NCBI RefSeq assembly: GCF_044324785.1
Contig: NZ_CP172128.1
Strand: one strand, 5' to 3'
DNA length: 64,000 bases
DNA from: Escherichia coli
GTDB taxonomy: Bacteria > Pseudomonadota > Gammaproteobacteria > Enterobacterales > Enterobacteriaceae
The position numbers are program-made. Shown in pieces: positions 1-3,000 of this stretch; the stretch's first letter is position 1, and each line of letters starts with the position of its first letter.

Positions 1-3000
1 GTGGCGGCCCTGAACCAGACCTCATTCACTGAAAGCACATACCGTCAGGTAAAGAACCCGAATCCGGTCTTCACACCCCGTGAAGATGCCGGAACGCTGA
101 AGTTCTGCGAAAAACTGATGGAAAAGGCCGTGGGCTTCACCTCCCGTTTTGATTTTGCCGCGCATGTGGCGTATGCCCGTTCGCGCGGCCTGCGCCGGCG
201 TATGCCGCCGGTGCTGCGCCGCCGGGCGATTGATGCGCTGCTGCAGGGGCTGTGTTTCCACTATGACCCGCTGGCCAACCGCGTGCAGTGCTCCATCACC
301 ACGCTGGCCATTGAGTGTGGTCTGGCGACAGAGTCTGAGGCCGGGAAACTCTCCATCACCCGTGCCACCCGTGCCCTGAAGTTCCTGGCAGAGCTGGGGC
401 TGATGACCTACCAGACGGAATACGACCCGACAATTGGCTGTAACATTCCGACCGACATCACGTTCACGCCGGCACTGTTTGCCTCACTCGATATCTCTGA
501 AGAGGCGGTGGCTTCCGCACGCCGCAGCCGCGTGGAATGGGAAAACAAGCTGCGTAAAAAGCAGGGGCTGGATGCGCTGGGTATGGATGAACTGATAGCG
601 AGAGCCTGGCGTTTTGTGCGCGAGCGTTTCCGCAGTTACCAGGCAGAGCGCAAGGCCCACGGCATGAAACGTGCCCGCGCTCGCCGTGATGCGGGCCGGA
701 CCCGTCAGGACATTGTCACCCTGGTGAAACGGCAGCTGACGCGTGAAATTGCGGAAGGGCGTTTCCGGGGAAGCCTGGAAACCGTGAAGCGCGAAATCGA
801 CCGTCGCGTGAAGGAGCGCATGATAATGTCGCGGAACAACAACTACACACGGCTGGCCACAGCCTCACCCTGAGAGTGACCTCATCTGAATAATCCGGCC
901 TGCGCCGGAGGCTTCCGCACGTCTGAAGCCCGGTGACGCACAAAAAAGCAGCACAGCACACAAAAAACAGCCTCATTATCTGCCTTCCGGCTCGCCTTGC
1001 TCCCCCTGTTTTTCACGCAAAACACGTATCACAGACGGGGAATTCTGTTTATCCACATTTAACTGCAAGGGACTTCTCCGTAAGGTTACAACCGTTCATG
1101 CTATAAAGCGCCAGCCGCAGGCGTTACAGGGTGCAATGTTTCTTTTAAACCCCAGTACTGTATTTCCTTTAAACTACTTAATTACTTCCATTTAAAAAGA
1201 AAACCTGTTCAGTGCCTGTCCTGTGGACAGACTGATATGCACCTCCCACGCTAACGCGCGGGCCCCGAACCTCACCATTCTGAAACCACAGCAAAAAAAC
1301 ATCAGGAATAAAAAACACCACACAAACACAGCACTGTACCCCCCCCCTCATAACTGAAAAGCGCCGCCGCCCCCGCCCGAAGGGCGGGAACAACATCGCT
1401 TTTAATTATGAATGTTGTAACTACATTGTCATCGCTGTCAGTCTTCTGGCTGGAAGTTCTCAGTACACGCTCGTAAGCGGCCCTCACGGCCCGCTAACGC
1501 GGAGATACGCCCCGACTTCGGGTAAACCCTCGTCGGGACCACTCCGACCGCGCACAGAAACTCTCTCATGGCTGAAAGCGGGTATGGTCTGGCAGGGCTG
1601 GGGATGGGTAAGGTGAAATCTATCAATCAGTACCGGCTTACGCCGGGCTTCGGCGGTTTTACTCCTGTGCCATATGCTACAACGGAGTGCCGCCTTCCAT
1701 GCCGCTGGCGCGGCATCAGAACAACTGAAGAGTGACGGCGCACATTAGCATCAAACAGACTTGTTAAGCAGTCTTTCAGGGTGTAATCTGAAGACCTGTT
1801 AAACAGTCTCAGAGGTGTGTTATGCCCAGTATAATTTTGTCTGACACCAGTGCAAGCGTCAGTGAACTGAAAAAAAATCCAATGGCGACAGTCAGTGCCG
1901 GAGAGGGTTATCCTGTTGCCATTCTTAACCGGAATCAGCCTGCATTCTACTGTGTTCCAGCTGAGCTCTATGAAAGGATGCTTGATGCCCTGGATGACCA
2001 GGAGCTGGTGAAACTGGTTACTGAGCGCAGCAGTCAGCCTCTGCATTATGTGGACCTGGACAGTTATTTATGACTTATACGGTTAAATTCAGGGATGATG
2101 CACTGAAAGAATGGCTCAGACTGGATAAGGCCATTCAGCAGCAGTTCGCAAAAAAAACTAAAAAAATGCAGTGAAAATCCTCATATAGCCTCTGCAAAAC
2201 TACGTGGATTAAAAGATTGCTACAAAATAAAACTTCGCGCATCAGGTTTTCGTCTGGTCTATCAGGTGATTGATGACATGTTAATTATTGCGGTTGTCGC
2301 AGTAGGTAAACGTGAACGTAGTCATGTTTACAATCTCGCCAGCGAGAGAATGAGATAGGGGGTGTAAATGCTTTTAAGTTTTAGTGAGTTAGATGTTCTT
2401 ATTTATCAGGGGAAGGTTGGGGGTTTATTTCGTGAAAGAAAAAATGAAAGGGTTGCTACAGACATTGATTCCAGAAACAAGTCATCATCAAGCAGTCATG
2501 AATATGATTCAGTTTTATCATTTCAATTTATTTGTGATAATGGAAAAGAAATAAATGTGAATTTAACAAATTGGAATATTAACATATTTCCAGGTCAAGA
2601 GCTCATTATTTATTTTGTGGAAAACTCAAAAAAAACAAAAAAATACCATACATGATAAAAAACAAAAGTACATCGGAAGTAACTAATAATGTTCAAGAAA
2701 TGTATAAAGAGTTTTTTATACATCATACTTCAAACTGATAATACCTTTCCTGTTAATCATTTCTTACTTTATGTCATCCATATCTGTGGCTATCATGTCA
2801 TTCGTTTTATATGTCATAATCAGAAGAAGAATAGGAAAAGATTTCTTTTCAGAAATAAAAAGGAAAAGGTTAAAAAAAGAAGATATCATGGGGTTAGAGC
2901 ACGTAATATAGGGGCGACTGGTCCTTATAAGGGACCGTCTAGGGACCGGAGTTCCATTGCTACGCCGGAACCGCCGAAATTTCCGGCGTAGCTCTCTCTT

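What the first reader, a model, noticed from the sequence alone, without database searches (positions are those of the whole stretch)
1475..1700. Solo copy of the structured R-S repeat downstream of oriR
The reverse complement of this region is a contiguous R plus S unit, whereas at 39961-41635 the same parts are separated by the IS110-family element and about 170 bp of extra sequence. This copy may be either a remnant right end with its preferred target, or a conserved structured plasmid element such as a primase-dependent single-strand initiation site downstream of the RepFIIA origin, which the IS110-family element targets.
Basis: inference. Interest (0 to 1): 0.45.

Follow-up and report, generated by a model that had tools for sequence, protein, structure and literature searches.

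The report
Intact IncFII origin-flanking priming module
The "solo repeat" is the normal, uninterrupted copy of a conserved hairpin-rich DNA module that sits just downstream of the replication origin of IncFII plasmids (the classic repA4 / primase "G-site" region). The second copy is the same module from another IncFII-type replicon, split by an RNA-guided IS110-family insertion sequence.

Summary
Window 1490-1712 reappears at 39936-40053 and 41529-41634 (about 95% identity) around a 1.48-kb insert.

The solo copy is not an IS remnant. It is collinear with R100 from repA through oriR (86%). It is conserved at the same position in 20 of the 24 IncFII-like repA loci I fetched, from many genera of Enterobacterales. 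It lies in the known "repA4 region", after the Ter site.

The S half (1462-1556) is nearly invariant. It folds much better on the minus strand, which is the leading-strand template. I read it as the primase-dependent priming signal (G site). That function is inferred, not shown.

The R half carries three hairpins with compensatory changes and an invariant CCCTG. A diverged copy of R sits next to oriT in F and R100.

The interrupting element (40054-41530) is an IS621-like IS110-family IS. Its bridge-RNA guides match the centre of the module. A 72%-identical relative carries different guides that match its own different target.

The "170 bp of extra sequence" and the third R-like copy lie inside the IS. 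Transposase-less scars of this IS exist in other plasmids.

Verdict: a known kind of element and ordinary. The IS that carries a copy of the module it splits is the one interesting twist.

The parts
1..873 (+). repA (IncFII replication initiator), context
   Evidence: Annotated in the identical record NZ_CP100531.1. Used as the query that retrieved 24 related replicons.
1040..1236 (.). Conserved oriR block. It contains the DnaA box TTATCCACA at 1049-1057 and an inverted Ter-like core at 1085-1092.
   Evidence: Conserved at 71-75% in the distant replicons, always at the same distance from repA. DnaA box read from the sequence. Ter core found.
1406..1427 (+). Ter (Tus-binding) site, TTATGAATGTTGTAACTACATT
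   Evidence: Core GTTGTAAC at 1414. The site is largely conserved across the aligned replicons. R1 is reported to have ter sites between oriR and the leading-strand start (PMC10331603), and the repA4 region is reported to contain the ter sites (PMC4398462).
1490..1712 (-). The solo R-S unit as defined by the repeat: the intact form of the module
1462..1556 (-). S core: a three-way hairpin structure, nearly invariant. Proposed primase-dependent priming signal (G site) on the leading-strand template. In this plasmid and in R100 a CTG (1463-1461 on the minus strand) abuts its 3' end.
   Evidence: Nearly invariant across genera. The minus strand folds at -27.2 kcal/mol (z -3.6) against -19.9 (z -1.4) for the plus strand. 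The same asymmetry holds in all 14 replicons, with 34 G.T cells against 2 A.C cells. A diverged S-like copy is in F at 40688-40788.
1587..1602 (-). Central motif CCCAGCCCTGCCAGAC. CCCTG is invariant, and the CT at 1595-1594 is the IS insertion core. This is the unoccupied target of the IS110-family element.
   Evidence: exact match. The conservation line marks CCCTG as invariant. Junction sequences are and the guide match.
1633..1716 (-). R half: three hairpins, Hc 1633-1646, Hb 1652-1694 and Ha 1699-1716
   Evidence: Folds (z about -3 on both strands). Compensatory changes in Ha and Hc. R-like copies in F at 65396-65530 and in R100 at 49806-49938.
39936..40053 (+). R half of the second, interrupted unit
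   Evidence: 95.8% identity to 1594-1712. 99% identical to the R half of the occupied unit in pLH10-b-1-C.
40054..41530 (+). IS110-family (IS621-like) insertion sequence. The core CT is present at both junctions (40052-53 and 41529-30).
   Evidence: Both termini are shared with 72%-identical relatives that sit in unrelated sites. The same insert sits in a complete repA-oriR replicon in L006. Pfam finds DEDD_Tnp_IS110 and Transposase_20.
40110..40142 (+). Bridge-RNA target-binding loop: left guide CCCAGCCCT (40110-40118) and right guide TTAGCAG (40136-40142)
   Evidence: The guides match the flanks CCCAGCC-CT-GCTAA. In relatives the same alignment columns read CCATCATCT and TCAACAG, which match their own target CCATCAT-CT-GTTGA. 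In the RNA fold both guides lie inside a stem-enclosed loop.
40259..41269 (+). IS110-family transposase gene; its last codons run into R'
41243..41387 (+). R': an uninterrupted R-like copy inside the 3' non-coding part of the IS
   Evidence: nhmmer E 4e-25. Also present in the 80%-identical Pantoea copy of the IS, where the Ha and Hc hairpin blocks are unchanged.
41388..41506 (+).
   Evidence: 81.5% identical overall between the two IS lineages. Fold z -4.1.
41507..41530 (+). IS right terminus with the -35 box TTGACA (41512-41517). After circularisation it lies 17 nt from TGTAAT (40058-40063).
   Evidence: The spacing was counted on the sequence.
41529..41634 (+). S half of the interrupted unit. 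It is truncated inside hairpin I where it meets the res-like region of a recombinase gene.
   Evidence: res-like inverted repeats.

Best explanation
Window 1490-1712 is the native, uninterrupted copy of a cis-acting, hairpin-rich DNA module. It belongs to the basic IncFII (RepFIIA) replicon and lies in the region historically called repA4: downstream of repA, oriR and the Ter site.

Its S half (1462-1556) works as single-stranded DNA on the minus strand. That strand is the template of the leading strand, which leaves oriR rightwards. Once the origin is opened, the strand folds into a three-way hairpin structure that stays free of SSB. There primase lays down the primer for leading-strand synthesis, as at the R1/R100 'G site'. 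In this plasmid the likely start is the CTG at 1463-1461.

The R half (1594-1716) is a second hairpin module with an invariant CCCTG. It also occurs on its own beside oriT in F and R100. It is probably a second priming or structural signal.

The copy at 39936-41634 is the same module from another IncFII-type replicon. An IS621-like IS110-family element has inserted exactly at the central CT of that module. Its bridge RNA base-pairs with CCCAGCC-CT-GCTAA.

Shown here: the repeat, the conservation, the hairpins, the strand asymmetry, the IS limits and the guide-target match.

Inferred: the priming function and the start site.
For: Repeat and coordinates.

Collinearity with R100 from the end of repA to the end of the unit (86%).

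More than 5000 plasmid records match the region.

24 IncFII-like repA loci were fetched. In 20 of them the 1341-1716 block, or at least its S part, sits at the same distance from repA. The S core is more conserved than oriR.

Hairpins: 98.1% of cells pair and 6 pairs have compensatory changes, which 0 of 500 shuffles reached.

Strand asymmetry of S: minus -27.2 kcal/mol (z -3.6) against plus -19.9 (z -1.4). All 14 replicons show the same bias, with 34 G.T cells against 2 A.C cells.

The Ter site lies immediately upstream, as described for R1, where ter sites lie between oriR and the leading-strand start (PMC10331603).

The repA4 region contains the ter sites, is important for stability and scored as required in TraDIS of pEC958 (PMC4398462). 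The R100 repA4 ORF corresponds to window 1236-1622 and is broken here, so the conserved feature is the DNA and not a protein.

S-like and R-like copies are found in F and R100.

IS limits, CT core and guide covariation.
Against: No significant alignment to the phage G4 complementary-strand origin, and no Rfam match.

The CTG abutting the S structure is present in this plasmid and in R100 but is not conserved in the other genera.

The only invariant CTG lies 35-40 nt away in the central motif, so the true start site could belong to the R half.

I could not obtain the papers that give the mapped G-site coordinates. The equation S = G site therefore rests on position, strand and my recollection of that literature.

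Most S base pairs never vary, so covariation says little about S. Its conservation could equally reflect recognition of double-stranded sequence.
Confidence: 0.65

Rival explanations
1. The R half, not the S half, carries the leading-strand start. Primase would initiate at the invariant CCCTG (1597-1593, minus strand) and copy rightwards through the R hairpins. S would then be an accessory or loading element. The IS would insert exactly into the primase initiation trinucleotide.
For: CCCTG is the only CTG-containing motif invariant in all 14 replicons. It lies about 360 nt beyond the end of the oriR block, close to the '400 bp downstream of oriR' that I recall from reviews. An R-like module with the same motif stands alone beside oriT in F and R100. 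There it reads hairpins...CCTG on the transferred strand, the arrangement a priming site for complementary-strand synthesis would need.
Against: About 45 nt of unstructured sequence separate the nearest R hairpin from the CTG, unlike G4-type sites. R shows no strand asymmetry. S is far more conserved and does show the asymmetry. The F S-like copy keeps the two outer parts of S and lacks the middle. That resembles what I recall of the dissected R100 G site, where the internal domain was dispensable.
Confidence: 0.2
2. The unit acts as double-stranded DNA, as a binding platform for a host or plasmid protein (for example a stability or termination-related factor). The hairpin potential would be incidental.
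For: The S core is almost invariant in sequence, so most pairs give no covariation signal. The region is linked to stable inheritance and ter function (PMC4398462).
Against: Compensatory changes occur in six pairs. The G.T bias favours one strand in all 14 replicons, which double-stranded recognition does not predict. The Ter site itself lies outside the unit.
Confidence: 0.08
3. The unit encodes a structured RNA with the sequence of the minus strand, transcribed towards oriR, or belongs to the leader of the neighbouring toxin-antitoxin operon.
For: G.U-compatible pairs on the minus strand would also suit an RNA. A toxin-antitoxin operon follows the unit in several plasmids.
Against: No Rfam family matches. 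No promoter-like site lies to the right of the unit on the minus strand. The only site found is at 1432-1405, which for that strand is downstream of the unit. What follows the unit differs between plasmids, while the unit keeps a fixed distance from oriR.
Confidence: 0.04
4. The solo copy is a degenerate remnant of the IS110-family element (its right end plus target), or a mobile miniature repeat.
For: The IS carries an R-like segment in its right end, so R-like sequence can be IS-derived. Transposase-less scars exist elsewhere (L007, L012).
Against: The solo copy has no IS terminus and no X segment. It is collinear with R100 and with distant replicons that have no IS. Only about 2% of the matching plasmid records carry the IS (108 records with 80% or more of the IS, against more than 5000 with the unit). 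No other copies exist in the window.
Confidence: 0.02
5. The unit is protein-coding: the repA4 ORF, or the annotated 55-aa hypothetical protein at 1568-1735.
For: R100 has a 128-aa ORF over the region. RefSeq annotates a 55-aa ORF here, and that protein has 121 cluster members.
Against: The R100 ORF is reduced to a 44-aa fragment in this plasmid. The start codon of the 55-aa ORF is not conserved, and the other genera have indels that are not multiples of three. Cluster members are all 'hypothetical' and vary between 46 and 55 aa.
Confidence: 0.01

Closest known systems
repA4 region of IncFII plasmids R100/NR1 and R1 (ter sites plus leading-strand start, downstream of oriR)
   Same: Same position and order (repA, oriR, Ter, unit). 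86% identical and collinear with R100 89671-90518. The R100 repA4 ORF maps to window 1236-1622. The region is reported to be needed for stable maintenance (PMC4398462).
   Different: Nothing essential differs. In this plasmid the repA4 ORF is broken, which supports a cis-acting role for the region.
Primase-dependent single-strand initiation signals (G4-type ssi, 'G sites') of phage G4 and of plasmids R1, R100 and F
   Same: Stable hairpins on the strand that serves as template for the strand to be primed, located just beyond the origin. A CTG abuts the structure in R100-type plasmids (TACTG, as at the G4 primer start).
   Different: No significant sequence similarity to G4 oric. The adjacent CTG is not conserved across genera. 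Priming activity was not tested here.
IS621 and other IS110-group elements guided by a bridge RNA (PMC11208160)
   Same: This comparison concerns the interrupting element. It has DEDD and Transposase_20 domains, a 205-nt 5' non-coding region with guides that match the target, a CT core, and a -35/-10 promoter formed across the circle junction.
   Different: The target is a plasmid replicon module rather than a REP sequence. The 3' non-coding region is long (261 nt) and contains a copy of the target module (R') plus a conserved hairpin segment (X). The 72%-identical relatives lack both.
Frpo / single-stranded DNA promoters of F-like leading regions
   Same: Hairpin-forming elements that act on single-stranded plasmid DNA. 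An R-like copy lies in the leading region next to oriT.
   Different: Frpo is recognised by RNA polymerase through -35/-10 boxes formed in a stem (PMC7690428). No promoter-like hexamers were found in the unit. No gene lies downstream of the R-like copy in F before oriT.

Membership tests
IncFII (RepFIIA) replicon, repA4 / ori-downstream region | Lies downstream of repA1 and oriR, collinear with R100/R1 | tested here: met
   Window 875-1716 aligns with R100 89671-90518 at 86% in one piece. The block sits at the same distance from repA in 20 of the 24 fetched loci.
IncFII (RepFIIA) replicon, repA4 / ori-downstream region | Contains Tus-binding ter site(s) between oriR and the leading-strand start | tested here: met
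   GTTGTAAC core at 1414 within TTATGAATGTTGTAACTACATT, largely conserved across the aligned replicons. An inverted core lies at 1085-1092. Literature: PMC10331603, PMC4398462.
IncFII (RepFIIA) replicon, repA4 / ori-downstream region | Mutations of the region cause unstable inheritance | not testable with these tools
   Only literature is available: repA4 scored as required in TraDIS of pEC958 (PMC4398462). Jiang et al. 1993 could not be read.
G4-type primase-dependent ssi (G site) | Stable secondary structure on the template strand of the strand to be primed | tested here: met
   S on the minus strand: -27.2 kcal/mol, z -3.6, 0 of 200 shuffles as stable; plus strand z -1.4. The asymmetry holds in all 14 replicons.
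G4-type primase-dependent ssi (G site) | 5'-CTG-3' initiation trinucleotide just 3' of the structure on the template | tested here: inconclusive
   Present in the window and in R100 (CGTGTA-CTG, 1463-1461). Replaced by CTC, CAC, TAA and others in most other genera. The invariant CCCTG lies at 1597-1593, on the other side of the S structure.
G4-type primase-dependent ssi (G site) | Sequence similarity to phage G4 oric | tested here: not met
   The best local alignment scores 37, against shuffles with mean 29.4, sd 3.9 and maximum 45. As I recall the literature, plasmid G sites are not expected to resemble phage ones except near the start.
G4-type primase-dependent ssi (G site) | Rifampicin-resistant SS-to-RF conversion that needs only SSB, primase and Pol III | not testable with these tools
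   Requires the M13/f1 ori-deficient plaque assay or in vitro priming.
IS110-family insertion sequence end or remnant (for the solo copy) | Presence of the IS left or right terminus next to the unit | tested here: not met
   Each terminus occurs once in the window, at 40052 and 41512, even with up to 3 mismatches allowed.
IS110 group, bridge-RNA-guided (for the interrupting element) | DEDD transposase plus a 5' non-coding RNA whose loop guides match the target and donor flanks around a shared core dinucleotide | tested here: met
   Pfam PF01548 (3e-26) and PF02371 (2e-16). CT is present at both junctions. The guides CCCAGCCCT and TTAGCAG covary with the target when compared with relatives. No Rfam model matched.
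Frpo-type single-stranded DNA promoter | -35 and -10 hexamers brought together in a stem and recognised by RNA polymerase | not tested
   Only a duplex promoter scan was run. It found nothing inside the unit.
Dispersed miniature repeat (REP/ERIC/MITE-like) | Many dispersed copies in unrelated contexts | tested here: not met
   Profile searches find only the solo copy, the split copy and the IS-internal R' in 64 kb. In F and R100 there are only one or two copies, at replicon or leading-region sites.

The most novel reading that the evidence does not exclude
The IS110-family element that splits the module carries an intact, selectively maintained copy of the R hairpin module (R', with its own CCCTG) in its right end, next to a conserved hairpin segment (X). 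Two readings follow. Either insertion into a replicon-critical priming region is made harmless because the IS brings a replacement signal, as integrative elements restore the tRNA genes they target. Or the IS uses a plasmid-type priming signal for second-strand synthesis of its own copy-out / single-strand-transfer intermediates. In either case R would be an autonomous priming module, shared by the IncFII replicon, the oriT-proximal leading region of F and R100, and an IS.
Probability: 0.25. Interest if true: 0.6.

Novelty: already known. Interest (0 to 1): 0.35.

Why it matters
For annotation, this stretch should be labelled as a cis-acting part of the IncFII replicon (Ter plus priming-signal module). 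It should not be labelled as a repeat, a hypothetical 55-aa gene or an IS fragment.

It also gives a clean natural example of bridge-RNA targeting. Guide and target covary between two related IS lineages, and the same site can be seen in three states: empty, occupied and scarred.

The unexpected part is an IS that carries a conserved copy of the very module it splits. If that copy is functional, it would show how an RNA-guided IS can live inside an important replicon element. It would also identify R as a portable priming signal.

Tried and rejected
- Alignment to the phage G4 complementary-strand origin gave no score above shuffles.
- Rfam searches of both loci found nothing.
- The original G-site, repA4 and start-site papers (Tanaka 1994, Jiang 1993, del Solar 1998, Bernander 1992) are not held. 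Full-text searches for 'G site' or ssi together with oriR gave nothing usable.
- A first strand test that counted G.T against A.C in the hairpins alone was inconclusive. It became informative only once the outer stem of S and per-sequence folding were added.
- RNAalifold on the R half alone failed because the central long hairpin is misaligned between the E. coli-type replicons and the others. I therefore did not count covariation for that hairpin.
- I asked whether the F leading-region ssDNA promoters ssp2 and ssp3 correspond to the R-like copy. ssp2 lies elsewhere, between yffB and yfgB, and no position is given for ssp3.
- The coding hypotheses were rejected.
- A by-eye resemblance between a hairpin in X and S hairpin I (shared CGTTAGCG) was not picked up by the S profile, so I do not claim it.
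Full report
**Observation**

A BLAST of window 1401-1760 against the whole window shows three matches:
- 1594-1712 equals the reverse complement of 40053-39936 (95.8%).
- 1490-1595 equals the reverse complement of 41634-41529 (95.3%).
- 1566-1702 equals the reverse complement of 41387-41252 (84.7%), a third and more diverged match.

So the contiguous unit is 1490-1712. At the other locus the two halves are separated by 40054-41528.

**Where the window comes from**

The region is identical to E. coli plasmid pLH10-b-1-A, NZ_CP100531.1. Positions 1-873 are an IncFII repA gene. More than 5000 plasmid records match the 1300-1800 stretch, mostly at 90-95% identity.

**The solo copy is native replicon sequence**

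Window 875-1716 aligns in one piece with R100 89671-90518 at 86%. That runs from the end of repA1 through oriR to the end of the unit.

A scan of one genome per species with the RepA protein returned 24 IncFII-like repA loci. They come from Klebsiella, Pantoea, Erwinia, Izhakiella, Hafnia, Citrobacter, Mixta, Lelliottia and others.

Three non-coding blocks recur downstream of repA at fixed distances in most of these loci:
- 886-930;
- 1040-1236, the oriR block, with the DnaA box at 1049-1057;
- 1341-1716.

The third block starts with a hairpin and a Ter site (TTATGAATGTTGTAACTACATT, core at 1414). It continues through S and, in many loci, through R. It is found, at least through S, in 20 of the 24 loci.

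In the multiple alignment the stretch 1464-1553 is almost invariant. It is more conserved than oriR (71-75%) and more conserved than RepA itself (77-86% amino-acid identity). An IS remnant or a chance repeat would not show this pattern. The solo copy also has neither IS terminus.

**Relation to the literature**

The 128-aa ORF that R100 carries over this region is the one I take to be the historical repA4. It maps to window 1236-1622. In the window only a 44-aa fragment of it remains.

RefSeq annotates a 55-aa ORF at 1568-1735. It has no conserved start in the other genera, and there the region carries indels that are not multiples of three.

[quoted passage not shown] PMC10331603 states that in R1 two ter sites lie between oriR and the start site of leading-strand synthesis.

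The unit begins about 60 nt after the Ter site, which is where that start is expected. The primary papers that map the primase 'G site' could not be read. From memory only, I recall these points:
- Masai and Arai placed a primase-dependent G site about 400 bp downstream of oriR.
- Bahk et al. found two ssi signals in an R1 derivative.
- Tanaka et al. found that the R100 G site needs two outer domains but not the internal one.

**Structure and strand**

As single-stranded DNA, the S core (1462-1556) folds on the minus strand into an outer stem with two hairpins. The energy is -27.2 kcal/mol (z -3.6; 0 of 200 shuffles as stable). The plus strand reaches only -19.9 kcal/mol (z -1.4).

The same 4-7 kcal/mol advantage of the minus strand is seen in all 14 replicons tested. 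At the paired positions there are 34 G.T cells but only 2 A.C cells.

The Ter orientation and the reported unidirectional replication of R1 imply that replication leaves oriR rightwards. The minus strand is then the template of the leading strand. A priming signal for that strand should therefore fold on the minus strand, and S does.

Over the whole unit, 98.1% of cells pair and six pairs show compensatory changes, which no shuffle of 500 reached. Most S pairs never vary, so for S the argument rests on conservation and asymmetry rather than on covariation.

In this plasmid and in R100 a CTG follows the outer stem directly (CGTGTA-CTG, 1463-1461). This recalls the TACTG at the G4 primer start. 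That CTG is not conserved in the other genera, and there is no significant alignment to G4 oric.

**The R half**

R has three hairpins (1633-1646, 1652-1694 and 1699-1716). Two of them show compensatory changes. At the S-proximal end of R lies the motif CCCAGCCCTGCCAGAC (1602-1587, minus strand), and its CCCTG is invariant in all 14 replicons.

A profile of R finds a diverged copy in F at 65396-65530 and in R100 at 49806-49938 (E about 1e-8). Both lie in the leading region between a DUF932 gene and the transglycosylase gene next to oriT. On my inference about which strand is transferred, that strand would read hairpins followed by CCTG. A profile of S finds one diverged copy in F at 40688-40788. 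It keeps the two outer parts of S and lacks the middle.

R therefore behaves as a module of its own. Whether it is a second priming signal, or even the real start site, is left open as the main rival.

**The interrupting element**

The transposase (40259-41269) has DEDD_Tnp_IS110 and Transposase_20 domains.

Relatives that are 72% identical sit in betT on an E. coli chromosome (L010) and in a plasmid leading region (L009). They share with the window element the left end (CT-TGTATGTAAT, starting at 40052) and a 25-nt right terminus (...TTGACAGAACACGGTAG-CT, ending at 41530). The IS is therefore 40054-41530, with the core CT at both junctions.

In the 205-nt left non-coding region, the sequence CCCAGCCCT (40110-40118) equals the left target flank plus core. 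TTAGCAG (40136-40142) is complementary to the core plus right flank (CTGCTAA). In the relatives the same alignment columns read CCATCATCT and TCAACAG, which match their own target CCATCAT-CT-GTTGA. In the predicted RNA fold both guides lie in a loop closed by a long stem. Across the circle junction, TTGACA and TGTAAT are 17 nt apart.

This is the IS621 type of bridge-RNA element (PMC11208160).

The right guide fits the occupied site (GCTAA) better than the solo site (GCCAG, two mismatches). That may be why the solo site is empty.

**Three states of the site**

- Empty: the solo copy, R100 and most plasmids.
- Occupied: window 39936-41634. The identical insert sits in a complete repA-oriR replicon of pLH10-b-1-C (L006). 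An 80%-identical IS sits at the same place in a Pantoea stewartii replicon (L019).
- Scar: R'-X-S without a transposase in CP099259 (L007) and in K. pneumoniae ATCC 13883 (L012). The L012 copy still carries the IS right terminus, AACACGGTAGCTGC. Recombination between R and R' would produce exactly this.

Only about 2% of the matching records carry the IS (108 against more than 5000).

The window's occupied copy has no oriR or repA next to it. It ends inside S hairpin I, against the res-like repeats of a recombinase gene. It is therefore a fragment of a second IncFII-type replicon.

**The odd feature**

R' and X are present in both IS lineages. Between them the transposase part is 81% identical and R' is 75% identical overall, yet the R' hairpin blocks Ha and Hc are unchanged. 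X is 81.5% identical overall, with a better conserved hairpin core, and its fold has z -4.1. R' keeps a CCCTG of its own, but its version of the IS target is mutated.

So the IS maintains a copy of the module it splits. This may compensate the replicon, may serve the IS's own second-strand synthesis, or may be a frozen accident. These tools cannot decide between those. It is the most novel reading that the evidence leaves open.

**Verdict**

The element is the known origin-flanking Ter / priming-signal region of IncFII plasmids, so the solo copy itself is ordinary. The priming function and the exact start site remain inferred.

Noticed in passing
window 40054-41530: Complete IS621-like IS110-family element. 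It has readable bridge-RNA guides (CCCAGCCCT at 40110-40118, TTAGCAG at 40136-40142), a CT core and a junction promoter (TTGACA, 17 nt, TGTAAT). The guides covary with the target when compared with 72%-identical relatives (L009, L010).
   Followed up: yes
window 41243-41506: The IS right end contains an uninterrupted R-like copy (R') and a conserved hairpin segment (X; z -4.1). Both are also present in an 80%-identical IS in Pantoea stewartii (L019 4022-4769) and absent from the 72%-identical relatives.
   Followed up: partly
L007 2501-2895 (CP099259.1); L012 3974-4393 (K. pneumoniae ATCC 13883): Transposase-less 'long form' R'-X-S that still carries the IS right terminus. It looks like a scar left by recombination between R and the IS-borne R'.
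   Followed up: partly
L036 15396-15530 (F 65396-65530); L004 49806-49938 (R100): A diverged R-like module with the TGGTCTGGCAGG motif lies in the leading region next to oriT of F and R100. It has the same orientation in both, and no gene lies downstream of it before oriT.
   Followed up: partly
L035 40688-40830 (F plasmid): An S-like element that keeps hairpin I and the distal part of S, lacks the middle, and is followed by a perfect hairpin (GTATTACGGC...GCCGTAATAC). It lies between the RepFIB and pif regions.
   Followed up: no
window 1353-1402: A conserved hairpin just upstream of the Ter site (AAAAGCG...CCCGCCCGAAGGGCGGG...CGCTTTT). The inner stem shows compensatory changes across genera.
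   Followed up: no
window 2070-2357: The RelE/ParE toxin gene annotated in the matching record is frameshifted in the window at the A-run around 2150-2166; translation stops after 34 codons. The Phd/YefM antitoxin gene at 1822-2073 is intact.
   Followed up: partly
window 41730-41805: Inverted repeats of TGTCCGAAA / TTTCGGACA upstream of the recombinase gene (41847-42437), which look like res subsites. The truncated S half abuts this region at 41634/41635. The same junction is present in ColV-type plasmids (L008).
   Followed up: no
L008 1999 (NZ_CP098193.1) and many ColV plasmids: In ColV-type plasmids the same IS keeps S on its right, but its left flank is a truncated zinc-binding transposase pseudogene instead of R. 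The break lies exactly at the IS left end.
   Followed up: no
L011 (Streptomyces morookaense assembly); L014 (Lachnospiraceae MAG): Contigs with an R100-like IncFII replicon (about 86% identical to the window) in assemblies of unrelated taxa. These are most likely contamination or mis-binning.
   Followed up: no
window 1800-39900 versus NZ_CP100531.1: Window coordinates equal record coordinates at 1300-1800 but are 3581 lower at 39900. The window therefore lacks about 3.6 kb that the record has somewhere in between.
   Followed up: no
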